Assembly (NCBI GenBank): GCA_964628035.1
Contig: CAZVPI010000007.1
Location: forward strand, 10,322 to 74,321
Direction of reading: 5' to 3'
From: an uncultured Clostridia bacterium
GTDB lineage: Bacteria; Acidobacteriota; Aminicenantia; UBA2199
Length of the DNA: 64,000 bases
Below, piece after piece: positions 661-53,210 of the stretch (positions within the stretch are counted from its first letter, which is position 1; each line of letters begins with the position of its first letter). The translations under genes and the position numbers were made by a program. The notes below the pieces were generated by a model. That model was not told where the DNA came from and did not search any database. It worked only from the letters and a program-made list of their open reading frames with translations.

Positions 661-661
661 C

Positions 662-9278: not shown

Positions 9279-9320
9279 CTATTTGAAATCCACTGTTTCA
9301 GGCTAGCTAATTTTAAAAAA

Positions 9321-17370: not shown

Positions 17371-17393
17371 ACTCCTTGATCAAGGATTCGCGA

Positions 17394-17434: not shown

Positions 17435-17738
17435 AGGCGAACGAAATTTCCGGGATGACACTGGCGCCCTTGGTTCGATCAGCTTCTGGCCAGCACAAAC
17501 ACCAACCTGCCCAAAATTCCTTTGCAGGAAACCTAATGAAACGGGCAGGACGAAAGCACCCATTTCCAAGCACCAAATCCACCTGGCGGGGACGATGCCC
17601 CCTGGCGGGGGCGATGGGACCCAAACCAGGGCCCTCGAAAGGAAAAGGCAAAAGTGAGGCGAACAGGCAATTTATTTTGGACGGCGCTGGTTTCTTGCTC
17701 GCACTAACACTAACGCTGCGAAATGGGTTTCCTTATCG

Positions 17739-18332: not shown

Positions 18333-18605
18333 AGCTCCTTGGGGATCGAGCCCATATTATAATACAAATGCGCAAGATCGCCAAATGGAAATGGATGATC
18401 ACGTGTTAGCGTTGGTGTTAGCAGGAAATTCAACGAACAAGAGGGGATAGTGACGATGGCAGCAGCGGCATCGATAAGGGCGTATGGCTTTTGCCGTACG
18501 CCGTACGCCCTCTGTCGAACGCCAATCTCCATGAAGTTCCCTTGCAACCCGGTTCGACACCCCCTCGTCGAATATGATACAGTATACAAGGAAAACGACC
18601 ATCCC

Positions 18606-29767: not shown

Positions 29768-30184
29768 TTATCTCCTTTTTTTTGATTTGCCCTGTTCCGC
29801 GGCCAGGCAGCCGGCGCAGGTGCCGTAGAAGCGGATGGTGTGGCCGCTGATGCGGTGGGGCGACAGCCGGCGCGCCGCAGCGGTGATGCCCGCGTCGGCG
29901 GGCATGGGGAAGTCGCTGACCGCGCCGCAGCGCTCGCAGACGAAATGGTAGTGCGGCTCGACCACGGCGTCGTAGCGCACGGTGCCGCTGCCGAACTCGC
30001 CGGCCTGCAGCCGCCCCTCCTCAAGCAGGATGGCGATGTTGCGGTAGACGTTGCCCAGGCTCAGGCTGGGCATCTCCGCCTTCAGGCGCTCGTAGACCGC
30101 CTGGGCGGTGGGATGCTGATGGCTGGATTGGATCTCTTCGAAAATCCGCTCGCGGCGCTTGCTTTTCCTTCTGCGTACTTTCAT
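29768..30184 (-). CDS. Fur-family metalloregulator, probably peroxide-responsive PerR
   Basis: 138 aa. The Fur DNA-binding helix region is IFEEIQSSHQHPTAQAVYERL. The HYHFVCERCG and GTCAGC structural Zn Cys pairs are present. It is adjacent to the peroxiredoxin gene. Confidence 0.7.
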   Translation of the reverse strand: MKVRRRKSKRRERIFEEIQSSHQHPTAQAVYERLKAEMPSLSLGNVYRNIAILLEEGRLQAGEFGSGTVRYDAVVEPHYHFVCERCGAVSDFPMPADAGITAAARRLSPHRISGHTIRFYGTCAGCLAAEQGKSKKRR

Positions 30185-30487
30185 ATTAGTAATAAATCAT
30201 ATTATTAATAATAAAACAGATTTTCATTCGTGTCCACTGGCTTGCCTCATTATGGGAAGCTCAGGGAAGACAGAGCCTGTTGGACTCAGGAGCAAACCGA
30301 TATGGAGAGGAGGGGGGGTGAAGCAAGAAAAGCAATCCAGAATCCGGCTGATAGGGCCTTTGCGGCTTTCTCCTATATAGTTCAATTCATTGCGGTTGCC
30401 AACACTGACACGAACACTGAAAAAGACTTTTCCCGCACTCTCTCCCCTCTTTCTTCCCTGGAGTGGATTCCATGCTATACTGCGCTC

Positions 30488-34199: not shown

Positions 34200-34413
34200 T
34201 GCCCAATCATACCCCAAGAGAGGAGACTATCCAACATTCAGCTAACGCTTTCCCGGCGGACGGAACCGGTTTTTTCAACATTTTTTAGCTGTCTTTTTAA
34301 TTATTGATTTATTTTACTATTTTGTAAATTGATATTTATTTTTTTAATATTTTTTTTGACTTTATTAATTTTTTATGCTATTAATACTTCAGAAAATAAT
34401 GGAGGGCCTATCA
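34200..34413. promoter_or_regulatory. extremely AT-rich divergent promoter region with an extended -10 promoter for the DUF2089 operon
   Basis: About 190 nt of A/T tracts in a roughly 68% GC genome. TTGACT (34356-34361) is followed by 17 nt and TGcTATTAAT (34376-34385). A GGAGGG RBS lies at 34401, ahead of ATG 34414. Confidence 0.4.
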
Positions 34414-35484: not shown

Positions 35485-35967
35485 TAGAACTTGACGTACG
35501 GCATACGGCCCTGAAGGTCCCCGCTGAGGGGGCATAAGGCTGACGGCAGAAGCGAAGCGCAGGGAAAACAAGGGGAAGGCTGAGGGAAGAGAGGCGTTGC
35601 CCCCATCCCCTCCCCTGCAACAAGCGATGCGAACGAGCATATTCCCAATAACCAGGATGAAACGACAAACGCAAACAAACAGCGAAAATGATGGCGGGGG
35701 CGAGCGTTCCCGGCGCCCTGCGCCCGCGGCGCGGCCTGGATGCATCCCCCTCTTCCCCTGTTGCGGCCTGATCCTCGCGCCCCTGCTGGGAATGCCGTGC
35801 CGGCCCCCCGCCGAACCCCGGCGCTGCAGGCGCCGCGTTCACGGCCGTCCCTGAACCATGGCGACCCCGGTCTCCCGCCAAAAAACTCCCTGGCTGAGAT
35901 AATCCTCCTTCGCAAGCAATTAATCTTGCAAGGAACGGCGCCCGGGCGGTGCACTGGGGAGGGAAAC

Positions 35968-37629: not shown

Positions 37630-37639
37630 GGGAGCTTAC

Positions 37640-37985
37640 GGCCGAGGGCCGCCGTACTGGGGATCTTATGTGATGAGTGGTAAATGATGAGGAACCGCAA
37701 TGGATCGAACTTTGTGGCTGCGAATCCCCGATCGAAAGCATTAGGCTGCAGGGGAAGAAAAAACCAGGGCTTTTTCGAATCTAGAAGTCCCAAATCACAG
37801 GCAAGCTCGGGCTTTGCTGTTTCTCATCACTCATTACTCATCACGCATCACTCATCACGATGGTTCATCTCAAGGCAGCTGCTACCACTATCACTACCAC
37901 TCTTAGCTCATTGATCTCGTCAGTTCGCTGGGTTTCCTGCTAACACCAACACGAACACTAAACACTAAGAGATCGTTCTGTTGCT
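37640..37985. repeat. composite intergenic repeat with conserved module order (ACGGC-like, ATCACGA array, GCTGCTACCACTATCACTACCACT, TCGTCAG, CTAACAC array)
   Basis: ...tcatcactcattactcatcacgcatcactcatcacgatgg...gctgctaccactatcactaccact...tcgtcagttcgctgggtttcctgctaacaccaacacgaacactaaacactaagagatcgttct. The same order recurs at 49044-49300 and 44462-44692. Confidence 0.65.
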
Positions 37986-38044
37986 CTCAAAAAGTTGCTC
38001 CTCCTCTCCGCTTCTGCCATAATCCATCCTGTCATGGGGGGAAG

Positions 38045-40597
38045 ATGAACGCTGCAAAAGTTGCCGCCCTGCTGCTGCTGGCCTTGTGGCCGGTCCTGCC
38101 GCTGCCGGCCCAGGTCTGGGCCAACAACGGCGAGGACAAGGTCACCCGCGACGAGCTGCGCGCCGCCGCCGACCCGGGCGCGGTGGTCAACTCGGTCTGG
38201 ACCGGCTCGCGCGTCACCCTCTTCGGCGCCCGCAACGAGGTGGTCAACTTCAACCTGGTGATCGAGGCCGCCGTTGCGCCGCTGGCCGGCGTGCGCGTGG
38301 AGTTCGACCGCCTGACCGGCCCCGGCGGCGCGCTGATCTCCTCGTCGCCGGCCTCGGGCGACGCCCTGTTCGACTGGACGGGACGCAACATCGAGTTGTT
38401 TTACGTGCGCTACCTGCGCATCAAGGGGCTCAGCCGGCTGGGATATGAGAACTATTATGACGAGCGGCACGTGCCGGCGAGGCTGCGCCGGCCCCACGAC
38501 GGCCGTTTCGCCGACCCGGGGACCGGCTGGAACGACCGCCCCGACCACGACAAGGAATACCCCGACATCGCCGTCCCCCTGGAAATGCACACGCCCTTCG
38601 CGGTGGCCGCGGGGAGCAACCAATCGGTCTGGTGCGACATCTACATCCCCAAAACGGCCGCCGCCGGCGCCTATTCCGGCACGCTCACGGTCAGCGTCAA
38701 CGGCACGCCGGCCTGGCAGGTCCCGGTCGACCTGCTCGTGCGCGACTTCACCCTGCCCGACCTGCCCGCCTGCAAGACCATGCTGGTCATGGGCGAAGGC
38801 GACGTCAACGAGCGCTACCTGGACCAGGCCTGGATCGACCCGGGCGACCCGCTGTTCGCCCAGTCCATGCGCATCATCGACCGCCACGTGCAGATGGCCC
38901 ACCGCCACAAGATCTCCATCATCGGCGCCGACGGCGGCGCCATCGAACGCATGGACGACGGCTGGACCGCCCGGCTCGACGGCAGCCTGTTCACCGCGGC
39001 CAACGGCTACGACGGCCCGGGCGCGGGCGTGGGCAACAACGTCTATTCCATCGGCACCTTCGGCTCCTGGACCGCCATGTGGGACCCGGACAGCGAGGCC
39101 GAGATGCGCAGCAACACCGACGCCTGGGTGAACTGGTTCGACGCCAGGGCGTTCGCCACGCCCACCGACACGTTCCTCTACCTGATCGACGAGTCGGACG
39201 ATTACCCGCAGCAGGAGCAGTGGGCGCAGTGGATGGACAACAACCCGGGCCCGGGAAGCCGCCTCCTTTCGTTCGCCACCATCTCCCTCCCCGAGGCCCA
39301 GGCCCACGTGCCTTCGCTGGACATCCCCTGCTCCCCGGCCGGGCTGGGGATCACCGCCGCCTGGCAGCAGGCCGCCGACGAAGTGCTGGCCGACCCCGGC
39401 AAGCGGCTGTTCGCCTACAACGGCTTCCGCCCGGCCACGGCCTGCTTCATGACCGAGGACGACGGCGTCGCCCTGCGATCGCTCGCCTGGGGGCAGTACA
39501 AGAAGGGGATCCAGCGCTGGTTCTACTGGGAGTCGACCTATTACGTGAACTTCCAGGCCTACGGCTACTCCGATCCCCGGGCGCGGGCCAACCTGTTCCA
39601 ACAGGCGCAGACCTTCGGCATGTTTTCCTCGACCGACGCCGTCCAGGGGGAGACCGGCTGGAACTACTCCAACGGCGACGGCGTTCTGTTCTATCCCGGC
39701 ACCGACCATCTCTTCCCGGCGGACAGCTACGGCCTGGCCGGCCCGATCGCCTCCCTGCGCCTCAAGCACTGGCGGCGGGGCATCCAGGACGTCGACTATC
39801 TTGCGCTGGCCGCGGCCATCGACCCGGAGCGCACGGCCGCGATCGTGGCCCGGATGATGCCCGCGTTCTACTGGGAGGTCGGGGTGGAAAGCGAGGACGA
39901 TCCCACCTACGTCTACGCCGACATCAGCTGGCCGACCGACCCCGACGCCTGGGAGGCGGCCCGCAAAGAGCTGGCCGACATCATCGACGGCGGACGCCTG
40001 ACCCTCACCGCACCCAACGGCTGGGAGCGCTGGAACCTGGGCGAGACCCGCAGCATCGCCTGGAGCGCCTCCGGCTACGACGGCCCGCTGCGCCTGGTGC
40101 TGTTCAAGGGCGGCAGCCGCTTCGGCAACATCGCCGCCGACGTCCCGGCCGCCGCCGGTTCCTATTCCTGGACCGTGGGCCAGACCTATGACGGCGGCAT
40201 GGCGCCCGCGGGAGGCGACTTCCGCCTCTACCTGCGCAGCGCCGACAACACCCTCGTCGACCCCAGCGACTACCGCTTCGCCCTGGCCGTTCCGGCGCCG
40301 CAGCTGCAACTGACCTCGCCCAACGGCGGCGAAAGCTGGCCCCTGGGCGCAACGCGCGCCGTCTCCTGGAACGCCAACGGTTACGCGGGGACCGTGCGCC
40401 TGGTGCTGTTCCACAAGGGGACCAAGATCGGCCAGATCGCCACCGGCATCCCCGCGTCCCAGGGGAGCTTTTCCTGGACCGTCGGCAGCCACGCCAACGG
40501 CATGGCGCCGGCGGGAGCGCTCTATTCCATCCGCCTGCTGGCCGGCGACGGCTCGCAGGAGGACTACAGCGACGCGCCGTTCGAACTGACAGACTGA
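38045..40597 (+). CDS. secreted DUF4091-like (putative glycoside hydrolase-like) protein with three C-terminal Kre9/KNH-like repeat modules
   Basis: 850 aa with a signal peptide. The central block [18 protein letters not shown]...[24 protein letters not shown] matches DUF4091 as I recall it. Three tandem modules of about 95 aa follow ([33 protein letters not shown]..., [33 protein letters not shown]...). Confidence 0.55.
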
Positions 40598-40840
40598 AAA
40601 GAAGCGAACTACAGACGTCAGACGCTAGGCGTTAGACGTCAGCAAGGCTAAGAATGTGAACAGAAAAAAGTGAAGGGGACACAACCGCTCCAGGCGTACG
40701 GCATAAGGCCCTGAAGGTCCCCGCTCAGGTGGCGCAAGACATACGGCAACGGCAGGGAACGAGCCGCAGGAATGAACAAACCTAGGCGTAAGGCATACAG
40801 CAAAAGCACTTCGTCTACAGAGAAGGTAGGCTTTCAACTT
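40598..40840. repeat. modular intergenic repeat (CAGACGT array, GAACAGAAAAAAGTGAAGG box, ACGGCATA...CCTGAAGGTCCCCGCTCAGG block, GGCTTTCAACTTGG box)
   Basis: The 40694-40760 block is about 85% identical to 35495-35550. The GGCTTTCAACTTGGCCTGTGG box recurs at 53046 as GGCTTTAAACTTGGTGCGTGG. Confidence 0.65.
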
Positions 40841-40880
40841 GGCCTGTGGTACGGGGCACTTGGAACCTCTCCTCAAGTGC

Positions 40881-41078
40881 CTATCCTGCCCTGGGCAGCT
40901 GGCGCTCGAGCTTCTTGCCCAGCAGCTGCCTGACGAACGTCGGCGTATCGGGGTCCTTCAGGCACCCCTCGCCGTACAGGCTGACATACTGGACCGCCAT
41001 GCGCCGCAGGTCATCCTCGCCGTTCAGGGATTCATCGGCATGGGTGGGCGCCGCGAAAAAGAAAACTTTCTGCTTCAT
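40881..41078 (-). CDS. small hypothetical protein (65 aa)
   Basis: MKQKVFFFAAPTHADESLNGEDDLRRMAVQYVSLYGEGCLKDPDTPTFVRQLL. A strong AGGAGG RBS lies 6 nt upstream of the ATG. I do not recognise the family. Confidence 0.35.
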   Translation of the reverse strand: MKQKVFFFAAPTHADESLNGEDDLRRMAVQYVSLYGEGCLKDPDTPTFVRQLLGKKLERQLPRAG

Positions 41079-41273
41079 GGTTCCTCCTGGCAACAAGATA
41101 AACGGGGGGGTGGGACAAATGATGTCCTAGCTGGAGAAACCGTTTCAATCCAAAGGAAAAAGGCAAAAGTGAAAGCCCCTATGCCCGCATCCCTTGGTGT
41201 CCGTATCCCCTGGTTGCATAGAAATCCAGGGCCTGCTACACTGCAGTCAGCAAGGATGACAAGGAGGCCCATC

Positions 41274-41480
41274 ATGTCCGTCGCCCGCATCACCGAGATC
41301 AAATCGTCCTCGAGCAAAAGCTTCGACGACGCCATCCGCAACGGCGTGGCCCGCGCCAACAAGACGCTGAAGAACGTCAAGTCGGCCTGGATCCAGAACC
41401 AGGAAGTGCTGCTCGACAACCAGGGAAAGATCGCCGAATACCGGGTGCAGATGAAGGTCACCTTCATCCTCAGCAAGTAG
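41274..41480 (+). CDS. dodecin-family flavin-binding protein
   Basis: 68 aa, reading MSVARITEIKSSSSKSFDDAIRNGVARANKTLKNVKSAWIQNQEVLLDNQGKIAEYRVQMKVTFIL. This matches the dodecin length and the beta-alpha-beta-beta pattern (VIEI.G.S...DA...A...A......W.EV...G.V...........Y.V.MKV.F). An AAGGAGG RBS is present. Confidence 0.6.
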   Translation: MSVARITEIKSSSSKSFDDAIRNGVARANKTLKNVKSAWIQNQEVLLDNQGKIAEYRVQMKVTFILSK

Positions 41481-41494
41481 GGCCGCGTCGCCAC

Positions 41495-42385
41495 GTGGCA
41501 GGAGACGGCTGGCTCCCCCGCGCCGCCCTCGCCGCGGCCCTGCTGCTGGCCCTGACGACTGCGTCCGCCGTCGCCCAGGAGGGGCCGCACATCGACCCGC
41601 AGGGCGGGACGGTGGCGGCGCGCTTCCTGCCCCCAGCCGGGTTTCGGCGCCCCGCGGCCGCGCCGGACAGCTTCGCCGCCTTCCTCCGCTCCCTGCCGCT
41701 GAAGGCGCAGGGCGCCGAAGTCCGGCTCTTCGACGGACGGATCAAGGCCAACCGCGGCGTCTATGCCGCAGTCGTCGACCTGCCCATCGGCCCCGTCCCG
41801 GCGGGACGGGGCGGCCCCCGCGACCTGCACCAGTGCGCCGACGCGATCATCCGCCTGCGCGCCGAGTACCTGTTCTCCCAGCGCCGCTTCGACGAGATCC
41901 GCTTCCGCTTCGGCAGCGGCTTTCCGGCCGAGTACGCCCGCTGGCGGCGGGGGGGACGCATCGCCGTGCGCGGCAACGACGCACGCTGGGTGGCGGGCGG
42001 TGCGCCCGGGGACGGCCGCCGCTCCTTCTGGCGCTACTTGGAGACGGTTTTTGCCTACGCCGGCACGGCGTCGCTGGCGCGGGAGCTGGCCCCGGCGCCG
42101 GGAAACGACCCCCGGATCGGCGACATCTTCATCCAGCCCGGCCATCCGGGCCATGCCGTCATCGTCGTCGACCGCGCCGTCGACTCCAGGGGCGGCGCCG
42201 TGTTCCTCCTGGCCCAGAGTTACATGCCGGCCCAGGAGATCCACATCCTGGCCAATCCGGCCGATGCCGACCTGAGCCCCTGGTACGCCTCCGGCTTCGG
42301 CGAAACCCTGGAAACGCCGGAGTGGACGTTTCGAGCTCAAGACCTGATGCGCTTCCCGGAGGAGCGGCAATCTCAAGTGAACTAA
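41495..42385 (+). CDS. secreted conserved hypothetical protein (possibly DUF4846-like)
   Basis: 296 aa. It has a signal peptide (ALLLALTTASAVAQE) and conserved blocks HQCADAIIRLRAEYLF and GDIFIQPGHPGHAVIVVD. The family assignment is from memory only. Confidence 0.4.
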   Translation: MAGDGWLPRAALAAALLLALTTASAVAQEGPHIDPQGGTVAARFLPPAGFRRPAAAPDSFAAFLRSLPLKAQGAEVRLFDGRIKANRGVYAAVVDLPIGPVPAGRGGPRDLHQCADAIIRLRAEYLFSQRRFDEIRFRFGSGFPAEYARWRRGGRIAVRGNDARWVAGGAPGDGRRSFWRYLETVFAYAGTASLARELAPAPGNDPRIGDIFIQPGHPGHAVIVVDRAVDSRGGAVFLLAQSYMPAQEIHILANPADADLSPWYASGFGETLETPEWTFRAQDLMRFPEERQSQVN

Positions 42386-42589
42386 GTGACAAGTGACGAG
42401 TGACGAGTGACGAGGAGCCGCAAGGAACGATCTTTGCCTGTTCCTCACCTCGACAACTCAGCCTCCCGCCTTCGCTCATTACGCCTCACGAAACGTGATC
42501 GCCCGCCCGACCGGGTGATTGCCTCAAAATTTATGATCGATCGACCAATGACTTTCCTTGTTACTTGTCACTCGTCACTTGTCACTGAG
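42377..42589. repeat. inverted pair of GTGACGA-unit arrays flanking an about 140-nt spacer between convergent genes
   Basis: gtgaactaagtgacaagtgacgagtgacgagtgacgagg at 42377-42415, and cttgttacttgtcactcgtcacttgtcactgag at 42557-42589, which is reverse-complementary to it. The structure is the same as at 26884-27012. Confidence 0.7.
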
Positions 42590-42600
42590 TCCGCGGTTCG

Positions 42601-44388
42601 CTAAGAATCCAGCACCTGCCTGACCTTGGCCGCGAGCTCCTCGGTGGTGAAGGGCTTGGCGATGAAGGCGACGCCGCCCTCCGGCGCCACTTCGCTCTCG
42701 GGGTGGGCCGACATGAAGAGCACCTTCATGCCCGGGCGCAGGCGGCGGACCTCACCGGCCAGCGTCATTCCCGTCGTGTCGGGCAGGATGACATCGGTCA
42801 GCAGGAGATCGCAGCAGGCTCCCGCCCGGTTGAGGATGGCGCGCGCGGCGGCGCCGTCGCCGGCGGAACTCACGCCGTAGCCCAGGCTGGCCAGGACCAG
42901 CTCGGTGAACTCCAGGACCATGGCGTCGTCCTCCACCAGCAGGATCGTCTCGTCGCCGCCGGGAAGCTCGCCGCGGGTCTCCTGGGGCTCGGCAGGCCGC
43001 ATCGGGAGCCTGGTCGCCGGAAAATAAACCGTCATGCGCGTGCCGCGGCCGGGATCGGAGCGGACCGCGATGGAACCGTTGTTCTGCTGCACCGCGCCGT
43101 ACACCAGCGAAAGCCCGAGCCCGGTCCCCTGTCCCACCGGCTTGGTGGTGAAGAAGGGATCGAAGATGCGGTGCAGGTCGGCCTCGGGAATGCCGATGCC
43201 GGTGTCGGCGACGGAAAGCAGCGCGTAGTCGCCCGGCTTCAGGACCGGGCTGGCCGCTGGCGGCGAACCGGCGATCCGCCTCTGCCCGGTCTCGATGGTG
43301 ATGACACCGCCGCCGGGCATGGAATCACGGCTGTTGAGCGCCAGGTTGATCACGATCTGCTCCACCTGGCCCGGGTCGGCCATGATGGGCGCCACCCCGG
43401 CGCCGAGCTTCAGCTCCAGGCGGAAGCCCTCGCCGAGAAGCCGCTCCAGCAGGCGGCAGGCGCTCTCCACGTGGCGGTTCAGGTCCATGGGCCGGGGCTC
43501 GATTTCCTGGCGGCGGGAGAAGGTGAGCAGGTGGCGGGTCAGGGCGGCGGCGCTGTCGGCGGCGCGCATGATGTCCTTGAGCCGGGCCACGGCGGGGCTG
43601 GCGGGATCGGCCTTGGCCAGGGCCATGCCGGCGTTGCCCAGGATCGTGGTCAGCAGGTTGTTGAAGTCATGGGCCACGCCGCCGGCCAGGCGGCCCACCG
43701 ACTCCATCTTCTGGGAGTGGAGCAGTTGCGCCTGCAGGCGCTCCTTTTCCTCCTCCTGGCGCCGGCGCTCGGCCAGTTCGCGCTCCATCTGCTCCAGGGC
43801 CCGCTGGTTGATCAGGTAGGCGGCGAATCCGGTGAGGGTGATGAACACGATGGCTATTGCGTTGTCGGCGAAATATTCCATGTAGCGATGGAAGGGCAGG
43901 GGCAACTGCCTGCGGACCAGGAGCAGGAAAAGGGCCAGGAAAACGAGGTTGGCGGCCCCGTAGACGAGGATGACGCGCTTGCGCCGCGCCACGGCCAGGG
44001 GCGTCAGCGTCAGCAACCCCAGCACGAAGGCGATGGTGTCCAGCTTGGACACCTCCCCGGTGCGGTCGAGGATCATGACCGTCCAGATCACCAGGAAGAC
44101 GAAGACCAGCAGCAGGTGGGCCGACAGGGAGAAGCGGCCGCGCAGCAGGAGGACCAGGACCCCCGCCAGCAGCACCAGGGCCAGGCCCTCGGGGACCAGG
44201 ACCAGCGGATTGAGGCGATAGCCCATGTCGGGGTTGTGCAGCTGGGAGCAGGCGCTGTAGGCCATGGCGATGGGGATGAGGACCATGATGAACAGGTGAA
44301 GCAGGAAGAAGAACTTGGCCTTCATGCGGATCACCGGATCGGCCCCTTCGTAGCGCTTCATGGCCCTGTCCAGCACTCCCTTGAGCAT
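42601..44388 (-). CDS. hybrid sensor histidine kinase (multi-TM sensor, HisKA, HATPase_c, C-terminal receiver domain)
   Basis: 595 aa with about 6 N-terminal TM helices. The H-box is AGGVAHDFNNLLTTILG. G-boxes GTGLGLS are present in the HATPase domain. The C-terminal receiver reads ILLVEDDAMV...DLLLTDVILPDTTG...KVLFMSAHP. Confidence 0.8.
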   Translation of the reverse strand: MLKGVLDRAMKRYEGADPVIRMKAKFFFLLHLFIMVLIPIAMAYSACSQLHNPDMGYRLNPLVLVPEGLALVLLAGVLVLLLRGRFSLSAHLLLVFVFLVIWTVMILDRTGEVSKLDTIAFVLGLLTLTPLAVARRKRVILVYGAANLVFLALFLLLVRRQLPLPFHRYMEYFADNAIAIVFITLTGFAAYLINQRALEQMERELAERRRQEEEKERLQAQLLHSQKMESVGRLAGGVAHDFNNLLTTILGNAGMALAKADPASPAVARLKDIMRAADSAAALTRHLLTFSRRQEIEPRPMDLNRHVESACRLLERLLGEGFRLELKLGAGVAPIMADPGQVEQIVINLALNSRDSMPGGGVITIETGQRRIAGSPPAASPVLKPGDYALLSVADTGIGIPEADLHRIFDPFFTTKPVGQGTGLGLSLVYGAVQQNNGSIAVRSDPGRGTRMTVYFPATRLPMRPAEPQETRGELPGGDETILLVEDDAMVLEFTELVLASLGYGVSSAGDGAAARAILNRAGACCDLLLTDVILPDTTGMTLAGEVRRLRPGMKVLFMSAHPESEVAPEGGVAFIAKPFTTEELAAKVRQVLDS

Positions 44389-44461
44389 CTCCCGCTCCCG
44401 CCGGCAACGCCGGCCAGCTCCAATTCGCGCGAATTATAGCGCAGGGGATTGTCCATAGCAA

Positions 44462-44692
44462 TCTTTTACAAGCAACAGACGTTAGACGCCAGACGGAAGA
44501 CGATAGCCAGGCAAAGAGAGTGAAAATGGAGAGAGTCGGTACAGCACGGGTTCACGGTATACGGTAGACGGTTTATGGCAACGGCGCTCAATGATCTGCA
44601 GTGATGAGCGATACGTGACAAGTGATGAGAAACCGCGCTCGTCGAGTTTCTTGCTAACACTAACACAGAGAGATGGTTCAGAGCTGGATTGA
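44462..44692. repeat. composite intergenic repeat (CAGACGT array, GAGAGTGAAAATGGAGAG box, ACGGT array, GTGATGAG/GTGACAAG, CTAACAC array)
   Basis: caacagacgttagacgccagacggaagacg...acgggttcacggtatacggtagacggtttatggcaacgg...gtgatgagcgatacgtgacaagtgatgag...tcgtcgagtttcttgctaacactaacacagagagatggttc. Confidence 0.65.
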
Positions 44693-44751
44693 CTTTGGCG
44701 GGAAAATGGTATAAAAAGTCGCTTCAAGAGCCACGCGGCCGGGAGACGAAC

Positions 44752-45579
44752 ATGAAAAAGATTACCCTTCTTCTCATCGCGATCATGCTGGCGGCAGCAG
44801 GCCTTGCCGCGCAGCAGAAGGACAGCGCGGCATGCAAGGACCACCCCTCCTTCACCCGCATGCCCGACTATTGGATCTATTCCTGCCAGCAGAAGCAGTT
44901 CGAGTCCTACGCCTTCGCGGTGGGCAAGGGCAAGACCGAGCCGGTGGAGGGCCAGTACTGGATGATCGCCTACCGCCCGCAGAACACGCTGGCCGCCAAG
45001 CCCAGCGAGCTGCAGATCCAGCGCAACTTCGAGAACGCCGTCCAGAAGCAGGGCGGCGCGGTGCTGTGGAGCGAAAAGGGCAAGAGCACCTTCCGGCTGT
45101 CCGGCGCCGGCGTCGAGATCTGGGCCGAGCTGCGCACCGATTTCACCAGCGGCTACCGGCTGTTCATCGTGCAAAAGCAGGACATGTCCCAGGACATCGT
45201 CGCCGACGCCGCGGCCATGGCCGGGGACATCAACGCCACCGGCCACGTCGCCGTCTATGGAATTTACTTCGACTCGGGCAAGGCGCTCATCAAGCCCGAG
45301 TCGGCCCAGGCCATCGCCGAGATCGCCAAGCTGCTCAAGGGCCAGCCCGCCCTCAAGCTCTTCGTGGTCGGCCACACCGACAACGAGGGAACGGTGGAGG
45401 GCAACCTTGCCCTGTCGCAGCAGCGCGCCGACGCCGTGCTCAAGGCGCTCGCCGGCGAGCACGGCATCGCCACCGCGCGGCTGCGGGCCCACGGCTGCGG
45501 CCAGTTCGCCCCGGTCGCCAGCAACGACACGCCGCAGGGCCGGGCCAAAAACCGCCGCGTCGAGCTGGTCAAGCAGTAG
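44752..45579 (+). CDS. OmpA-family protein (C-terminal OmpA/MotB peptidoglycan-binding domain)
   Basis: Start MKKITLLLIAIMLAAAGLAAQ is a signal peptide. The C-terminal region LFVVGHTDNEGTVEGNLALSQQRADAVLKAL...AHGCGQFAPVASNDTPQGRAKNRRVELV matches OmpA_C. Confidence 0.75.
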   Translation: MKKITLLLIAIMLAAAGLAAQQKDSAACKDHPSFTRMPDYWIYSCQQKQFESYAFAVGKGKTEPVEGQYWMIAYRPQNTLAAKPSELQIQRNFENAVQKQGGAVLWSEKGKSTFRLSGAGVEIWAELRTDFTSGYRLFIVQKQDMSQDIVADAAAMAGDINATGHVAVYGIYFDSGKALIKPESAQAIAEIAKLLKGQPALKLFVVGHTDNEGTVEGNLALSQQRADAVLKALAGEHGIATARLRAHGCGQFAPVASNDTPQGRAKNRRVELVKQ

Positions 45580-45593
45580 ATCGCAGAAACCTA

Positions 45594-46147
45594 TGGAGGT
45601 AACCCTGCCGCAGGAGCACGGCAAAAGGAAGATCGTCGCGGAAAGGATCAGCCATTTCCTCATGGGATCGGCGGTGCTCCTGAAGGGGGTCGCCAAGGCC
45701 GAGCATTTCCGCGACCATCCCTGGCTGGTGGTCTTTCTCTTTGCCGCCGGTCTGTTCATCCTCATCGGCGCCGCGCTGCACCGCCCGATCGAGAGGAGGA
45801 TCCCCCATTTCACGAAGCTGTTTTATGTGGCGGAGGGACTGGCCCTGATCGCCGTCGGCCTGGCGCTGCTGGAGAAGAGCGCCCGCATCCCCTACTTTTT
45901 CATGTTCGCGGGTTTCGCCTATCTGGCGTTCGGGATCTTCGAATTCAAAGCCGATGCCGGGGAGAAAGAAAGGCTGGCGCCCCTTTTCGCCGCTGCCATG
46001 GGCGGCGCCTTCATCGTCTTTGCCGCAACGGCGGCCTTTCTGAACACCCTCGGCGCCCGCAACGGCTGGGCCTATTTCACCTCCGGCCTGATCGCCGTTG
46101 TGGGCATTTTTCTGCTGATCGCCCGCCAAAGGCTTTTTCGCAAATAG
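45594..46147 (+). CDS. integral membrane protein, 4-5 TM helices, unknown function
   Basis: Start MEVTLPQEH. Hydrophobic segments are WLVVFLFAAGLFILIGAAL, LFYVAEGLALIAVGLALL, YFFMFAGFAYLAFGIF and GLIAVVGIFLLIA. Confidence 0.45.
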
Positions 46148-46269
46148 GTCGACTTCGGCAAACCACTCCGACACTGAAGGCCGTATTGGGACAAGCAGCA
46201 AGCTCTGTAAAGGGTTTGGGGGATAGCCAAAACGGTTTTTAGGCAAGGCCAGATACTGGTAAGACTAAA

Positions 46270-46428
46270 ATTCCAAGCACCAAGCACCAAATCCCAAACA
46301 AATTCCAAGTTCCAAATTCCAATCTCCCGAACAAAAACCCATTCAAGCGTCTTTTCTTGTTTTGTTCATTGGGTAATTGGTGCTTGGTGCTTGTTTGGAA
46401 TTTGGTGCTTGGAACTTGGTGCTTCGGT
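46270..46428. repeat. inverted arrays of CACCAAG/CCAAATT units forming an about 160-nt imperfect palindrome
   Basis: ttccaagcaccaagcaccaaatcccaaacaaattccaagttccaaattccaatctcc...ggtaattggtgcttggtgcttgtttggaatttggtgcttggaacttggtgcttcgg. The right half is the reverse complement of the left, with substitutions. Confidence 0.7.
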
Positions 46429-46637
46429 CATACCCGTTTTTAATTTATTTTGGACAGATTTGATAAGCAATGAGAAGCTGCACAAGATCGATCTGTGCTG
46501 ATTCAAATGCAAATCACGAATCACGACAGGAAGGGATCATTTGCTTCATTCTTGAATGAATGCAAAATGTCCTGCTTCCCGGTCGCATTTTCACTTTGCT
46601 TCTGGCACAATTTTGTTTGCGAGATCGAGAGGAGCCG

Positions 46638-49043
46638 TCCATGCGCATCGACAATTTTTCTATCCTGAAGCGATGCATCATGGCGATCCTGCTTGCCGGC
46701 CTGACGTCGCTTCCGCTTTTCCTGCCGGGCCAGGAGCAGGTCCACGAGAAGATCGAGGTGATCTACCAGGAGATCCTGGTGCGGGTGTTCGACAACGGCC
46801 GACCCGTTCCCGGGCTCCAGGCCGAGGATTTCGCCGTGGTTGAGGACGGCGAGCCGGTGAAAGTCGCCTACTGCCGCCAGCTGCGGCGCTCGCTGGCCCG
46901 CCCCGAGGCCGAGCCCGGCGGCGCCGCGGAGGCCCCGGCCCCGACCAGGCCGCGCCTGTTCTTGTTCATGTTCTGGCTCAACGAGGAGAGCCGCGAGTGG
47001 CCCAAGGCCTGGGAATATTTCGCCAGCCAGATCCACTGCCCCGGCGACCGGGTCGTGCTCAGCGACGACAGCCGGGACGTGGAAATCCGCTCCCTGGCCG
47101 AGGAGAAGGAGAAGATCGACGCCTTTTTCGCCCGCCTGGGCGAAGACCTGAAGAAGAAGCAACTCGAAAAGAAGAGGCTGGTGAACGAGCTGGAGCTGAG
47201 CGCCGGCGATTTCTACGACAGCCTTGTCGCCTTCCAGGGATCTCCGCATCCCCCGCCGGAAAACATGATGCTGGAGCGGTTCAAGATGAGCTATCTCGGC
47301 GCCCTCAATGAATACCGCCTGGAGCGGCTGGCCACGGCGCTGAAGGCGGTGGAGGCCGAGAAATGGGCGCTGCTGTTCCTGCAGAACGAGCGGCTGCCGC
47401 TGCTGCATCGCGACGCGCGGCTGCTGCGCGACGCGCCGATGAAGCAGGAGACCCTGGCCGCTCTCAAGGAGTTCATGGACCGCAGCGAGAGGCAGCTCAA
47501 GCTGGCCGGCGACGTGACGAGCTATCTGCGCGACCTGCGGCCGCTGTTCGTCGGCGCCAACGCCACTTACCACGTCTTCCTGTGCGATGCCGCCGGCGAG
47601 ACGCTGCCCGGCGAGCACCTGCAGTGGCAGCCGGTGTTTTCCTCGTGGGAGGGAGCCATCCGCCAGATCAGCGCCGACACCGGCGGCCGGGTCAGCGACA
47701 CCACCCGTTTGGGCGAGGCGCTGCGGCAGGCTGCGGAAAAGGAAGATGTTTATTATGTCCTGACTTATAAGCCTCCCGCCGGCCGGCAGCGCCGGCGCCA
47801 GCTGCAGGTCGAGGTGGGAGGACCGGGGCTGAAGGCGGTCTACTCGCGCAAGCTGGAGCTGGGCGAGCTGTTCCCCCTGAAGATCCAGGCCCTGGAGTGG
47901 GGTCAGGGGAAGCTGACCGTGTCGCTGGCCGACTACCAGAGGACCTACGGCGAAAAGGGACTGGCCGGCCGCCTGCAGGTCAGCCTCCGCGCCCATCTGC
48001 GCGGCAACGAGCCCCTGGCCTTTGCCAGGGAGATCCTGCCGGACGAACCCGCCGTCGATGTCGAGATGGCCCTCCATTTCCCCGAGCCGGGGAGTTACCA
48101 GGTCCACGTCGAGGCGCAGGACCTGCTGACCGGCAACCGGGCCACCGCTGAAAAGGAAATCGCCGTGCTGCCGCCTCCGGCTTCTGCTCCCGTTTTAGAG
48201 CCTGAGGTCGATACGCCGTTCCTGCCCGAGGAGTTGGAGCCGGTCATGGCCAGGGCCGCGGAGTATTGCCGGCGCCTGAAGGAGGCGGCGTTCCGCTTCT
48301 ACTGTCTGGAGAAGGTAGAGGAGCGGATGCTGGAACGCAATCCGCTTGCGAAACGGACGGAGCCGGTAGAGCGGCGCTGGGAGTACGACTACCAGATCAC
48401 CGGCGCCGGCGGCACGATCAGCGAACAGCGGCGATTGGTCCGCGAGGGGACGCGGAAAATGGACAAGGCGAACGCTGCCCTGGAGACCCGCTTCTCTTCC
48501 CACTACTCGGTGTTCCAGCCCGTCATCCTGCTGGCGTTGGAGAACCGGGCGGCTTATTCCTGCCGCCTCGTTGGCCGCGATCGCATCGGCAGCCGCCGCT
48601 GCGCCGTCGTCGAAATGACGCCGAGGCAGGCGGGGGACAGCGGCATCGCCCAGGGCAAAGCGTGGATCGACGAGGCCGACGGCTCGGTGCTCAAGATCGA
48701 GATGAGCCCGCACGGGGTGGTTGGCGCCGAGGAGCTGGAGAAGGCGGCCGCGAGCTTCCAGGCGCGGCTGCTGCTCGAGGTGACCCACCAGTACTCTGTC
48801 GAGCGGGACGGCCTGTGCTTTCCCTCCATGACCCTGTTCCGCGAGGCCTACGTCCTGGAAAAGGTGGTGACGGAGAGGAGCCGTGAAATGGCCGGCGGGA
48901 ATCTCAATGGGAGCGGGATGATGATCACCTTGCCCCAACTGGAGGGGAGAAGGCGCGAGATCGAATTCTACCGCCTGCGCCAAGACTACGGGAAGTACCG
49001 CTTCTTCGACGTGGACAGCCAGGTCGAGGTCCAGGAGCCCTGA
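46638..49043 (+). CDS. von Willebrand factor A domain protein of the VWFA-related Acidobacterial-domain type (TIGR03436-like)
   Basis: About 800 aa with a signal peptide. The N-terminal block EKIEVIYQEILVRVFDNGRPVPGLQAEDFAVVEDGEPVKV matches the TIGR03436 family signature as I recall it. A GAGGAG RBS lies 7 nt upstream. Confidence 0.65.
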   Translation, partial: SMRIDNFSILKRCIMAILLAGLTSLPLFLPGQEQVHEKIEVIYQEILVRVFDNGRPVPGLQAEDFAVVEDGEPVKVAYCRQLRRSLARPEAEPGGAAEAPAPTRPRLFLFMFWLNEESREWPKAWEYFASQIHCPGDRVVLSDDSRDVEIRSLAEEKEKIDAFFARLGEDLKKKQLEKKRLVNELELSAGDFYDSLVAFQGSPHPPPENMMLERFKMSYLGALNEYRLERLATALKAVEAEKWALLFLQNERLPLLHRDARLLRDAPMKQETLAALKEFMDRSERQLKLAGDVTSYLRDLRPLFVGANATYHVFLCDAAGETLPGEHLQWQPVFSSWEGAIRQISADTGGRVSDTTRLGEALRQAAEKEDVYYVLTYKPPAGRQRRRQLQVEVGGPGLKAVYSRKLELGELFPLKIQALEWGQGKLTVSLADYQRTYGEKGLAGRLQVSLRAHLRGNEPLAFAREILPDEPAVDVEMALHFPEPGSYQVHVEAQDLLTGNRATAEKEIAVLPPPASAPVLEPEVDTPFLPEELEPVMARAAEYCRRLKEAAFRFYCLEKVEERMLERNPLAKRTEPVERRWEYDYQITGAGGTISEQRRLVREGTRKMDKANAALETRFSSHYSVFQPVILLALENRAAYSCRLVGRDRIGSRRCAVVEMTPRQAGDSGIAQGKAWIDEADGSVLKIEMSPHGVVGAEELEKAAASFQARLLLEVTHQYSVERDGLCFPSMTLFREAYVLEKVVTERSREMAGGNLNGSGMMITLPQLEGRRREIEFYRLRQDYGKYRFFDVDSQVEVQEP

Positions 49044-49300
49044 AAGCGGCGTACGGTTCACGGTGGACGGTTTACGGCAAGAAAAAACAGCAAATTTCAA
49101 ACAAGCACCAATGACCCAAACCTAGTCGCTTGAAAAGTAAAAGGAAAAAGGCAAGAGTTAAGTGACCTTGGTCTTTCGAATCACGAATTACGAATTACGA
49201 TAGCTCTTTTATTGCTGCTACTATCACTACCACTATCACTTCTAGTTCGTCGAGGTTCTTGCTGACACTGACACTGACACTGGCACGGAGGGATCGTTCT
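49044..49300. repeat. composite intergenic repeat with the same module order as 37640-37985
   Basis: gcgtacggttcacggtggacggtttacggc...aagcaccaatgacc...gaaaagtaaaaggaaaaaggcaagagttaagtgacc...gaatcacgaattacgaattacgatagc...gctgctactatcactaccactatcac...tcgtcgaggttcttgctgacactgacactgacactggcacggagggatcgttct. Confidence 0.7.
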
Positions 49301-49301
49301 T

Positions 49302-50366: not shown

Positions 50367-50497
50367 GAGCCACCTCGCCGGGAGATTGCGACACGTAGTG
50401 TATCACAAAGGGCTGGGATTGTATGTCAGGGCACTCAAAAGGCCAAAAGAAGATGCCCGCGGTTTTTCGGATTCCGGATCACGACAGCTCGTGTCAT

Positions 50498-50582
50498 CAT
50501 GGCTGCTCCCATCACGGATCGCCGATCACCCATCACCTGGACTTGTTCATTGTAGGGCTTGTTGTTGCCACCACCATGACCC
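50498..50582. repeat. about 85-nt intergenic element with a second copy at 53120-53210 (about 75-80% identity)
   Basis: catggctgctcccatcacggatcgccgatcacccatcacctggacttgttcattgtagggcttgttgttgccaccaccatgacc compared with catggctgccgcgaatcactaattccccatcaccaggacttgttcattccagggctcgctgctaccaagaccactatgacc. Confidence 0.65.
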
Positions 50583-52940: not shown

Positions 52941-53119
52941 GAGATTGAAAAGAGCAATCCAGGTTAGTCAGCGACGGACAGACCGACGGTCCAACGCGGT
53001 TCCACGTACCATGTACCACGTTAAACAGCAAAAGCACATCGCCGATAGAGGACGCCGGCTTTAAACTTGGTGCGTGGGGGGTGGCCATGGAATCTCATCT
53101 TTATCTCCCAGGTGCCACT

Positions 53120-53210
53120 CATGGCTGCCGCGAATCACTAATTCCCCATCACCAGGACTTGTTCATTCCAGGGCTCGCTGCTACCAAGACCACTATGACC
53201 ATCACTGGCA
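53120..53210. repeat. second copy of the about 85-nt element found at 50498-50582, preceded by GGCTTTAAACTTGG and ACGG-type modules
   Basis: See 50498-50582. The upstream flank 52962-53010 reads cagcgacggacagaccgacggtccaacgcggttccacgtaccatgtaccacg. Confidence 0.6.

What the first reader, a model, noticed from the sequence alone, without database searches (positions are those of the whole stretch)
37640..49300. Three intergenic elements share the same module order, implying descent from one composite element
At 37640-37985 and 49044-49300 the order is ACGGC-type block, ATCACGA array, GCTGCTAC(C/T)A(C)TATCACTACCACT box, TCGTCAG/TCGTCGAG, then (C/G)TAACAC/TGACACTG array, then AGAGATCGTTCT / GGGATCGTTCT. 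The boxes are about 80% identical. 44462-44692 shows a variant order (CAGACGT array, GTGAAAATGGAGAG box, ACGGT array, GTGATGAG, TCGTCGAG, CTAACAC array, AGAGATGGTTC). A conserved order plus a conserved terminal box, AGAGATCGTTCT, argues for a transposed or duplicated composite element rather than independent microsatellite expansion.
Basis: seen in the sequence. Interest (0 to 1): 0.55.

Follow-up and report, generated by a model that had tools for sequence, protein, structure and literature searches.

The report
Modular intergenic repeat system in Aminicenantes

Summary
E1 (37880-37979) and E3 (49213-49300) share a ~100-column block at 80% identity, far above shuffles. E2 shares only the linker, leader and R array. 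A fourth Y->R copy lies at 18403-18466 on the minus strand.

The trio is not special: E1-E3 ranks only joint 6th of 190 spacer pairs. 23 of 24 strict period-7 arrays lie in spacers that make up about 12% of the window. The same Y->R block, with a 22-23-nt gap, recurs in at least 10 Candidatus Aminicenantes genomes (Y->R 17, R->Y 2). Its internal signature is conserved (TGACAC-TGACAC-TGTCAC-TGACAC, 25 copies), so these are copied sequences, not independent microsatellites.

I found no terminal inverted repeats, target-site duplications, neighbouring transposase or Rfam family. Related genomes show one-unit slippage, a clean 96-nt indel of exactly one linker-Y-linker-R module bounded by R arrays, and wholesale replacement at greater divergence.

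Best reading: a mosaic, BIME- or STRR-like repeat system reshuffled by recombination and slippage. Function is unknown.

The parts
37668..37694 (+). E1: GTGATGAG-type heptamer array, G-rich orientation. It is the left arm of an inverted pair.
   Evidence: I7/I1: arms 37670-37700 and 37814-37844, 81% complementary, 113 nt apart.
37820..37860 (+). E1: pyrimidine leader TTTCTCA followed by a TCATCAC/TCATTAC heptamer array of 5-6 units. It is the right arm of the inverted pair.
37878..37901 (+). E1: Y module, GCTGC + TACCAC TATCAC TACCAC T (hexamer array).
37902..37940 (+). E1: doubled linker (TTAGCTCATTGATCTCG + TCAGTTCGCTGGG) followed by the leader TTTCCTGC.
   Evidence: an insertion of about 23 nt relative to the other 18 copies.
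37941..37965 (+). E1: R module, TAACAC CAACAC GAACAC TAAACAC (a degenerate hexamer array).
37968..37979 (+). It is the start of the next generic linker.
   Evidence: The same CTAAGAG(A/C)TCG follows R arrays in L093, L044 and L073. GATCG-TTCTTGC is the junction in front of R arrays in L035, L058 and L078.
44477..44502 (+). E2: AGACGNN heptamer array of 4 units, G-rich orientation.
   Evidence: all 5 mismatches fall in positions 6-7.
44549..44575 (+). E2: ACGGTNN heptamer array.
44600..44632 (+). E2: degenerate GTGATGAG-type units.
   Evidence: read directly from the sequence.
44639..44666 (+). E2: linker end TCGTCGAG, leader TTTCTTGC, and an R module of only 2 units (TAACAC TAACAC).
   Evidence: The orthologous spacer in a relative whose OmpA is 93% identical (L132/L133) has 3 units and the same promoter.
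44433..44461 (-). Promoter-like site for the histidine-kinase gene (TTGCTA-17-TATAAT). It marks the left limit of E2.
44689..44715 (+). Promoter-like site for the OmpA-like gene (TTGACT ... TGGTATAAA). It marks the right limit of E2.
   Evidence: Read. It is identical in L132/L133. The scan tool did not flag it because the spacer is 15 nt.
49052..49087 (+). E3: ACGGTNN heptamer array in G-rich orientation, followed by the reverse-complement leader GCAAGAAAAAA.
49131..49157 (+). E3: purine-rich AAAAG(G/T)A module. It also precedes Y->R blocks in L073 and L078.
49170..49200 (+). E3: leader TCTTTCG followed by an AATCACG/AATTACG heptamer array.
49214..49240 (+). E3: Y module, GCTGC + TAC TATCAC TACCAC TATCAC T.
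49241..49262 (+). E3: linker TCTAGTTCGTCGAGG followed by the leader TTCTTGC.
49263..49286 (+). E3: R module, TGACAC x3 then TGGCAC.
49287..49301 (+). E3: remnant of the next linker and leader (GGAGGGATCGTTCTT). It abuts the stop codon of the convergent AI-2E transporter gene.
18403..18466 (-).
17689..17720 (+). R-only module: TTTCTTGC + TCGCAC TAACAC TAACGC.
30395..30420 (+). R-like array with a degenerate leader: CAACAC TGACAC GAACAC.

Best explanation
E1, E2 and E3 are local assemblies of a modular intergenic repeat system shared by several Candidatus Aminicenantes genomes.

The basic module is a pyrimidine-rich leader (TTTCYTGC or similar) followed by 3-6 imperfect units of 6 or 7 bases. 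Each unit has a conserved core and 2-3 variable positions. Modules are joined by linkers of about 22 nt (consensus nAG(C/T)TCGTTGAG(C/T)). They occur head-to-tail or as inverted pairs.

E1, E3 and a fourth site at 18.4 kb carry the same two-module block: a TAYCAC array followed by a TRACAC array. E2 carries only the TRACAC module.

Shown:
- The block is a copied sequence dispersed over many non-orthologous spacers and genomes.
- Unit number changes by one unit between close relatives.
- A whole linker-Y-linker-R module is gained or lost between direct R arrays.
- Orthologous spacers are rebuilt from the same or other families at about 15% protein divergence.

Inferred:
- Modules spread and are reshuffled by homology-driven copying (unequal recombination, gene conversion or template switching seeded by the arrays), together with replication slippage. 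Classical transposition seems unlikely.
- They persist because they sit where they do little harm, mostly downstream of genes or upstream of -35 boxes.
- A sequence-specific trans factor probably keeps the cores conserved, but none was identified.
For: Period and location
- Period 7 is strongly enriched: 24 arrays against 1.4 expected.
- 23 of 24 strict period-7 arrays lie in spacers that make up about 12% of the window. None lies in the lower-GC island at 1-9860.

The E1-E3 block
- 80% identity, about 12 sd above shuffles.
- A fourth copy lies at 18.4 kb.

Distribution across genomes
- A genome-collection scan with the leader + R pattern gave more than 116 hits. Multi-hit genomes with true arrays are all Aminicenantes or their likely mislabelled relatives.
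- Hits in viral contigs are chance matches in coding sequence.

Syntax
- Module pairs: Y->R 17, R->R 15, R->Y 2, Y->Y 0. The gap is nearly always 22-23 nt.
- In the 19-copy alignment the core is about 85 nt and the flanks are unrelated.

Copied, not independently expanded
- The unit order TGACAC-TGACAC-TGTCAC-TGACAC occurs 25 times in 7 genomes. Other orders occur 0-5 times.
- Only 9 of 83 adjacent units are identical.

Dynamics between relatives
- 2 versus 3 TAACAC units in E2 against L132/L133.
- A 96-nt module indel, L045 against L071, within flanks judged about 93-95% identical by eye.
- Orthologous spacers have different content or orientation: E3 against L007, window against L035, window against L129/L135.
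- Relatives at 58% amino-acid identity have no arrays downstream of the orthologous gene.
Against: - No direct evidence identifies the copying mechanism. The single clean indel could equally be a deletion by slippage.
- Near-identity of 24-27-nt arrays across genomes whose coding DNA is about 78-88% identical suggests purifying selection or a recognising protein. A purely neutral or selfish model does not explain that.
- Arrays often end 10-40 nt upstream of promoter-like sites (E2, 20.7 kb, 60.8 kb, L026, L067, L071, L073, L082). That would also fit a regulatory role.
- The loci from other genomes were ascertained with a pattern containing the leader and two R units, which biases some counts.
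- The window's own R arrays are degenerate, with 0 canonical copies.
Confidence: 0.6

Rival explanations
1. DNA-level protein-binding platforms. Each contiguous run of at least 4 hexa- or heptamers is coated by a small oligomerising DNA-binding protein, as ribbon-helix-helix proteins coat heptads. The arrays would insulate or tune neighbouring promoters, or organise the nucleoid. The modular order would then reflect functional syntax.
For: - Units appear to have a conserved core of about 5 bases and 2-3 variable positions. Arrays typically have 4 units.
- Arrays occur in direct and in inverted orientation.
- Many end just upstream of promoter-like sites, and E2 exactly fills the gap between two divergent promoters.
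- There is a precedent. The omega/ParB protein of pSM19035 binds 7-10 contiguous 7-bp repeats 5'-WATCACW-3', direct or inverted, and needs at least 4 (PMC9499535).
- Window 28720-28747 is AGTGATT AGTGATT TGTGATT AGTGATT, built from the same two heptads.
- Array sequences are conserved across genomes.
Against: - At least 10 unrelated unit families would each need a binder.
- Arrays are densest in convergent spacers without promoters (5.3 per kb against 2.5 in divergent spacers). Pattern hits fall in 14 convergent against 5 divergent spacers.
- Orthologous spacers swap families freely.
- The concentration of mismatches in two positions is only weakly above null (0.86 against 0.77).
- No candidate protein was identified.
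Confidence: 0.2
2. RNA-level elements in untranslated regions. Inverted array pairs would form long hairpins that stabilise or process mRNA 3' ends, as REP hairpins do. Head-to-tail C/A-rich arrays would form unstructured platforms for RNA-binding proteins such as Rho, S1 or Hfq-like factors.
For: - The longest inverted repeats in the window are array pairs. They extend into unique flanks.
- They sit mostly downstream of genes.
- Orthologous spacers keep a hairpin architecture while changing the heptamer family: window 20622-20723 against L035 375-535, and window 42381-42590 against L129 6381-6601.
- E3 folds worse than shuffles (z +1.4 and +2.0), so it is an unstructured stretch.
- Several arm mismatches are G-T (read).
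Against: - Sense and antisense strands fold equally well in 18 co-directional spacers (11 against 7, p = 0.23).
- E1 folding is not better than shuffles (z -1.2 and -1.4).
- No U-tract follows the hairpins, and terminator-like sites are not enriched.
- The C-rich strand is antisense to the incoming transcript in several spacers.
- No Rfam family matches.
- The linker mini-hairpin varies only by subfamily, with no true compensatory changes.
Confidence: 0.12
3. Non-autonomous transposable elements (REP/REPIN- or MITE-like) mobilised in trans by a transposase encoded elsewhere in the genome.
For: - High copy number, extragenic location, bias towards gene 3' ends, inverted doublets and a mosaic organisation like BIMEs.
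- Related genomes carry classic 'GTAG + GC-rich hairpin' REP-like elements with co-varying stems next to the arrays.
- Short-read assemblies break at the arrays.
Against: - The Y->R block has no terminal inverted repeat. I saw no target-site duplication by eye, and the block ends vary.
- The modules themselves are not palindromes and lack GTAG.
- No recurrent neighbouring gene family was found next to the hits.
- The one observed indel is bounded by direct repeats.
Confidence: 0.15
4. Independent microsatellite expansions or chance resemblance between low-complexity spacers.
For: - Heptameric simple repeats are known to be over-represented in bacterial intergenic DNA, and polymerase slippage has been proposed as the cause (PMC4692102).
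- A one-unit change is seen between relatives.
Against: - The similarity includes non-periodic linkers, a fixed 22-23-nt spacing and a conserved order of unit variants across 7 or more genomes.
- The E1-E3 score lies far outside the shuffle distribution.
Confidence: 0.02

Closest known systems
Heptameric intergenic repeats of Xanthomonas, (GGGAATC)n / (GGGANTN)n, and of Nostoc (PMC4692102)
   Same: Intergenic tandem heptamers with a conserved core and variable positions. Most arrays have about four units. Many occur as convergent inverted pairs able to form stem-loops. The same spacers are occupied in related species but with extensive variation in length and sequence. Function is unknown.
   Different: Xanthomonas has one G-rich, G-quadruplex-prone family. 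Here there are at least 10 unrelated 6- and 7-mer families without G-runs, a common pyrimidine leader, conserved linkers of about 22 nt, and a preferred order of modules.
Cyanobacterial STRR heptamers and TAACTGA direct repeats of Beggiatoaceae, Cyanobacteria and Bacteroidetes (PMC4679880)
   Same: Lineage-restricted, abundant intergenic heptamer arrays of 2-6 copies, proposed to be protein-binding sites.
   Different: TAACTGA repeats are nearly perfect, belong to a single family, and lie a few nucleotides upstream of start codons. The arrays here are imperfect, belong to many families, lie mostly downstream of genes or upstream of -35 boxes, and are joined into composite blocks.
REP/BIME mosaic elements of enterobacteria and REPINs of Pseudomonas (from my own knowledge)
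   Same: Extragenic, high-copy and biased towards gene 3' ends. Short units are combined with specific linkers in a constrained order and in alternating orientation. Sequence is conserved across species while occupancy of orthologous sites turns over.
   Different: REP units are imperfect palindromes headed by GTAG and are tied to RAYT transposases. The modules here are periodic arrays, not palindromes, and lack GTAG. GTAG-hairpin elements do exist in related genomes beside the arrays, but not in E1-E3.
BOX elements of Streptococcus pneumoniae, boxA-(boxB)n-boxC (from my own knowledge)
   Same: A modular dispersed intergenic element with a fixed module order and a variable number of copies of an internal module.
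   Different: BOX modules are 45-59 nt of unique sequence. The modules here are arrays of 6-7-nt units.
Omega/ParB (ribbon-helix-helix) heptad arrays of plasmid pSM19035 (PMC9499535)
   Same: Contiguous 7-bp units in direct and inverted orientation near promoters, with at least 4 units needed for function. Window 28720-28747 is built from the same heptads (AGTGATT / TGTGATT).
   Different: Those are a few sites on a Firmicute plasmid with one cognate protein. Here there are probably dozens or more arrays per chromosome, of many families, and no binder is known. The match is a resemblance in architecture, not a tested membership.

Membership tests
Intergenic heptameric simple-sequence arrays (STRR / Xanthomonas type) | Tandem units of 7 bases, over-represented relative to other periods. 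| tested here: met
   24 period-7 arrays against 1.4 expected. Periods 5, 8 and 10 are at background.
Intergenic heptameric simple-sequence arrays (STRR / Xanthomonas type) | Confined to intergenic DNA. | tested here: met
   23 of 24 arrays lie in spacers that make up about 12% of the window.
Intergenic heptameric simple-sequence arrays (STRR / Xanthomonas type) | Heterogeneous units with a conserved core, about 4 units per array, and frequent inverted pairs. | tested here: met
   The statistical support for position-specific variation is weak (0.86 against 0.77).
Intergenic heptameric simple-sequence arrays (STRR / Xanthomonas type) | A single dominant unit family per genome. | tested here: not met
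   At least 10 families occur in 64 kb, and some arrays are hexameric.
REP / BIME / REPIN | The unit is an imperfect palindrome of 20-40 nt headed by GTAG. | tested here: not met
   Y and R modules are direct arrays with no dyad. There are no convincing GTAG-hairpins in the window spacers.
REP / BIME / REPIN | Mosaic of units and specific linkers in a constrained order; extragenic; high copy. | tested here: met
REP / BIME / REPIN | A cognate RAYT (Y1 transposase) gene flanked by the repeats. | not testable with these tools
   No whole genome is available. No recurrent gene family was found next to pattern hits.
MITE | Terminal inverted repeats. | tested here: not met
   No inverted repeats at the ends of E2 or E3, or of the Y->R block.
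MITE | Target-site duplications. | tested here: not met
   Flanks in alignment A2 are unrelated, and I saw no duplicated flanks by eye. The 96-nt indel is bounded by R arrays, not by a short duplication.
Structured non-coding RNA family (Rfam) | Match to a curated covariance model, or covariation-supported structure. | tested here: not met
   No Rfam hit at gathering score, or at E <= 1 apart from one spurious lncRNA match. Fold z-scores range from -1.4 to +2.0.
Omega-type ribbon-helix-helix operator / parS arrays | At least 4 contiguous 7-bp WATCACW units, direct or inverted. | tested here: inconclusive
   Met literally by window 28720-28747 and partly by the AATCACG/AATTACG units of E3. Not met by the Y and R hexamers or by most other families.
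Omega-type ribbon-helix-helix operator / parS arrays | A cognate ribbon-helix-helix protein that binds the array. | not testable with these tools
   No binding data exist and no candidate gene was identified.
Phase-variable contingency microsatellite | Perfect repeats within a promoter spacer or reading frame, whose copy number switches expression. | tested here: not met
   Only 9 of 83 adjacent units are identical. Arrays lie outside the -35/-10 spacers and outside genes.

The most novel reading that the evidence does not exclude
The arrays could be a lineage-specific, genome-wide 'code'. About ten families of 6-7-base units would each be read by an oligomerising nucleic-acid-binding protein, assembled behind a common leader. 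Many gaps between genes would then carry a defined string of protein-coated modules that insulate transcription units or organise the chromosome. The modules would be propagated by a transposase-free copy mechanism (template switching or gene conversion between arrays). This would be a new kind of bacterial intergenic architecture and a new mode of repeat spread.
Probability: 0.15. Interest if true: 0.8.

Novelty: new variant of a known kind. Interest (0 to 1): 0.55.

Why it matters
Intergenic heptamer arrays have been noted in cyanobacteria, Xanthomonas, Beggiatoaceae and Geobacter for decades without any explanation.

This uncultured lineage (candidate phylum OP8, Aminicenantes) shows the phenomenon in an extreme and unusually structured form:
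- many unit families;
- a shared leader;
- fixed-length linkers;
- a directional module order;
- datable events between relatives (slippage, a module indel, family replacement).

That grammar gives concrete handles for testing whether such arrays are selfish DNA, protein-binding platforms or RNA elements.

There is also a practical consequence. These repeats break short-read assemblies of Aminicenantes genomes at many spacers, which affects the quality of metagenome-assembled genomes.

Tried and rejected
- Rfam: nothing at gathering score on the window or on five related loci, and nothing meaningful at E <= 1 on 37.5-49.5 kb. No tRNA or tmRNA genes were found.
- RNA folding of E1 and E3 on both strands: no excess structure, and E3 is less structured than shuffles.
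- Sense against antisense folding energy in 18 co-directional spacers, as a test for strand-specific RNA selection: not significant.
- Orientation of CAC-type arrays against local GC skew, as a test for replication-strand bias: not significant (rho -0.26, p = 0.10).
- Search for a recurrent neighbouring gene such as a transposase in 116 loci: none found.
- Terminal inverted repeats at the ends of E1, E2, E3 and of the 19 aligned blocks: none. I saw no target-site duplications by eye.
- Viral contigs: 12 pattern hits, all chance matches in coding sequence.
- JGI metagenome relatives of the 800-aa protein: only 57-58% identical homologues, with ordinary spacers downstream of the orthologous gene. 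Useful as an outgroup only.
- Rho-utilisation-site idea for the C-rich arrays: orientation is inconsistent with incoming transcripts in several spacers.
- Covariation in the linker mini-hairpin AG(C/T)TC-NTT-GAG(C/T)T: the two variable positions track the subfamily and are not compensatory.
- Position-specific variability within arrays: the arrays are too short and the pooled effect is weak.
- A covariance model of a structured element that precedes R arrays in relatives: no copy in the window.
- Literature: no paper on Aminicenantes repeats was found.

Full report
**1. What is at the coordinates**

- E1 (37630-38044) lies between two plus-strand genes: an fn3 protein and a GH123-like protein.
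- E2 (44389-44751) lies between a minus-strand hybrid histidine kinase and a plus-strand OmpA-like gene.
- E3 (49044-49301) lies between a plus-strand 800-aa gene and the stop codon of a minus-strand AI-2E transporter gene.

The window is identical to part of an ENA metagenome contig (ERZ926432, 115.6 kb).

**2. Check of the observation**

- E1 and E3 share a local alignment of about 100 columns (37880-37979 against 49213-49300). It has 70 matches, 18 mismatches and 12 gap columns, which is 80% identity over aligned pairs.
- Its score of 47 compares with 18.4 +/- 2.3 (maximum 29) for dinucleotide shuffles.
- The block has four parts:
  - a hexamer array GCTGC-(TAYCAC)n, here called "Y";
  - a linker ending in the leader TTCYTGC;
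  - a hexamer array (TRACAC)n, here called "R";
  - the box GAGATCGTTCT.
- E2 shares only the linker end, the leader and a two-unit R array. That is 31 nt at 87% identity with E3. A 28-nt degenerate pattern derived from E2 and E3 finds only those two sites in the window at up to 3 mismatches; it finds none in 100 shuffles.
- The upstream "ACGGC block" and "ATCACGA array" are alike only in being heptamer arrays with related cores.
- The E2 version of the terminal box has 2 mismatches, which is not above background.
R-only modules lie at 17689-17720 and about 30395.

**3. The trio is part of something much larger**

- Period-7 self-similarity is strongly enriched in the window. There are 24 strict arrays against 1.4 expected, while periods 5, 8 and 10 are at background.
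- 23 of the 24 arrays lie in spacers that make up about 12% of the window. None lies in the first 9.8 kb, a lower-GC island with defence-like genes that looks foreign.
- Reading the spacers shows at least 10 unit families: AGACGNN, ACGGNNN, GTGATGA/TCATCAC, AGTGACG/CTYGTCA, AATCACG, CCAAGCA/TTGGTGC, AAAGGNA, and the hexamers TAYCAC and TRACAC.
- A pyrimidine leader (TTTCYTGC or similar) very often precedes the array. On the other strand the array is followed by GCAAGAAA.
- The longest inverted repeats in the window are almost all pairs of arrays of one family. Their arms extend into unique flanks, so they are true inverted repeats.
- Among 190 pairs of spacers, E1-E3 ranks only joint 6th by alignment score.

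**4. Relatives**

- A scan of one genome per species with the leader + R pattern returned more than 116 hits. Every genome with several hits and true arrays is labelled Candidatus Aminicenantes or "Acidobacteria bacterium". Two "uncultured Clostridia" bins have loci that match Aminicenantes loci almost base for base, so they are probably mislabelled.
- Hits elsewhere, and all 12 hits in viral contigs, are single chance matches in coding sequence.
- In these genomes the same block recurs. Module pairs on one strand within 45 nt are Y->R 17, R->R 15, R->Y 2 and Y->Y 0. The gap is almost always 22-23 nt.
- An alignment of 19 blocks shows a conserved core of about 85 nt with unrelated flanks.
- The linker consensus is nAG(C/T)TCGTTGAG(C/T)-TTCYTGC. 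A second class, GGGCTGTAAGCCC-TCYTGC, occupies the same place.
CTAAGAG(A/C)TCG follows R arrays in L093, L044 and L073, and GATCG-TTCTTGC is the junction in front of R arrays in six other loci.
- R arrays are copies of a defined sequence. After the two units fixed by the search pattern, the order TGTCAC-TGACAC follows in 25 cases in 7 genomes, against 0-5 for each other order.
- Longer syntax recurs as well:
  - AAAGGNA array -> hairpin -> Y -> R in E3, L073 and L078;
  - GTGATGNG array -> Y -> R (-> R) in L052, L080 and L114, with L052 repeating the roughly 143-nt super-unit in tandem.

**5. Dynamics**

- At 93% OmpA identity (L132/L133) the E2 promoter region is conserved and the R array has three TAACAC units instead of two. 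This is a one-unit slippage-type change.
- Two closely related genomes (L045 and L071; flanks judged about 93-95% identical by eye) differ by a clean 96-nt indel. It is exactly one linker-Y-linker-R module, bounded on both sides by R arrays.
- At about 85% OmpA identity or below, orthologous spacers hold other families (L135, L129).
- The spacer downstream of the orthologue of the 800-aa gene in L007 contains the same Y->R block as E3, but in the opposite orientation and among other modules.
- Two spacers compared with L035 (88% identical coding DNA) keep an inverted-pair architecture or one arm, while the unit family or the module number differs.
- Homologues at 57-58% identity, in genomes of 52-57% GC, have short ordinary spacers downstream of the orthologous gene.
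- Short-read assemblies of this organism and its relatives end at the arrays.

**6. Location**

- Leader + R modules fall in 14 convergent, 14 co-directional (9 sense, 5 antisense) and 5 divergent spacers.
- In the window, array density is 5.3 per kb in convergent spacers against 2.3-2.5 per kb elsewhere.
- Many arrays end 10-40 nt upstream of promoter-like sites. E2 fills the gap between two divergent promoter-like sites. E3 has no promoter beside it.

**7. Mechanism**

- The data exclude chance and independent microsatellite growth.
- They give no support to classical transposition. There are no terminal inverted repeats and no recurrent neighbouring gene family, and I saw no target-site duplications.
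- The events actually seen are a unit-number change and a module indel between direct arrays. The fixed linker length and the directional order add to this picture.
- The best fit is homology-driven copying and loss of modules (unequal recombination, gene conversion or template switching), together with slippage. This step is inferred, not shown.
- Near-identity of arrays across species suggests a trans factor or other constraint, but none was found.
- RNA-level tests were negative or inconclusive:
  - no Rfam match;
  - no excess folding;
  - no sense/antisense asymmetry;
  - no compensatory changes in the linker mini-hairpin.
- A DNA-binding reading has a clear precedent in ribbon-helix-helix proteins that coat at least 4 contiguous heptads in either orientation (PMC9499535). 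It would need many binders, and it does not explain the excess in promoter-less convergent spacers.

**8. Comparison with what is known**

- Over-representation of heptameric repeats in bacterial intergenic DNA is known. So are single-family cases: Xanthomonas (GGGANTN)n, mostly four units and often in inverted pairs; Nostoc; STRR; Beggiatoaceae TAACTGA; Geobacter (PMC4692102, PMC4679880, PMC2700814).
- The mosaic organisation resembles BIMEs and BOX elements (from my own knowledge).
- I found no description of the following: many families in one genome, a shared leader, fixed-length linkers, a directional module order, and a distribution restricted to a subgroup of Aminicenantes. No paper on repeats in this lineage was found.
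- I file it as a new variant of a known kind.

**9. Verdict**

It is strong for E1 and E3, and limited to one module for E2.
The blocks are copied composites, but they are not a private trio and not a demonstrable transposon.
- Interest is moderate (0.55).

Noticed in passing
window 1-9300: A lower-GC (~52%) island encodes RmuC, a YhcG-type PDDEXK nuclease, an SNF2 helicase with a NOV_C domain, a Schlafen-like helicase and a MazG-like protein. It looks like an acquired defence island. It contains no period-7 arrays, unlike many spacers in the rest of the window.
   Followed up: partly
window 28720-28747: Four contiguous heptads, AGTGATT AGTGATT TGTGATT AGTGATT. These are the same two heptads that make up the parS/operator arrays (5'-WATCACW-3') bound by the ribbon-helix-helix omega/ParB protein of plasmid pSM19035.
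   Followed up: partly
L035 6760-6892; L058 2479-2611; L078 1346-1477; L092 719-849 and 2525-2657; L099 396-528; L053 7643-7775; L129 15608-15745 (-): A multi-copy element of about 133 nt with two conserved hairpins and compensatory changes (9 of 35 predicted pairs). It ends in GGCTGATCG-TTCTTGC and runs straight into an R array. It is not in Rfam, and my covariance model finds no copy in the window.
   Followed up: yes
L016, L042, L051, L063, L030, L076, L097, L082: Classic REP-like units, GTAG followed by a GC-rich hairpin with co-varying stems and often a closing CTAC. They lie beside the arrays in related genomes. No convincing copy occurs in the window's spacers.
   Followed up: partly
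window 35495-35548 and 40694-40748: A 54-nt shared intergenic element: ACGGC-type units around CCCTGAAGGTCCCCGCTSAGG. This is the best-scoring spacer pair in the window (score 68).
   Followed up: no
window 50491-50581 and 53111-53200: A shared element of about 90 nt that includes a degenerate Y-like array (GCTGCTACCAAGACCACTATGACC). It is the second-best spacer pair (score 61).
   Followed up: no
window 46255-46437: The longest inverted repeat in the window (66-nt arms), built from CCAAGCA/CCAAATT units and their complement TTGGTGC/TTGGAAT. An 84% identical copy exists in another genome (L067 6096-6272).
   Followed up: partly
window 17393-17416, 30181-30211, 34294-34357: AT-rich direct repeats (AGAATATT x3; TCATATTAGTAATAAA x2; a ~15-mer TTTTTAATATTTATT x4) in promoter-containing spacers. 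They are of a different kind from the 6-7-mer arrays and may be operators.
   Followed up: no
L052 47-399 (-): A tandem super-repeat of about 143 nt: GTGATGNG array, small hairpin, Y array, small hairpin, R array. Whole strings of modules can therefore be duplicated in tandem.
   Followed up: no
L129 4960-5310, 6381-6601, 16712-16850: Three copies of a palindromic element of about 130 nt built from GGGAAGA-type purine units and their complement. This family is not seen in the window.
   Followed up: no
L002-L006 and L132-L135 contig ends (window 40539, 46309, about 44625): Independent short-read assemblies of this organism and close relatives end at the arrays. The repeats therefore limit contig length for this lineage.
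   Followed up: partly
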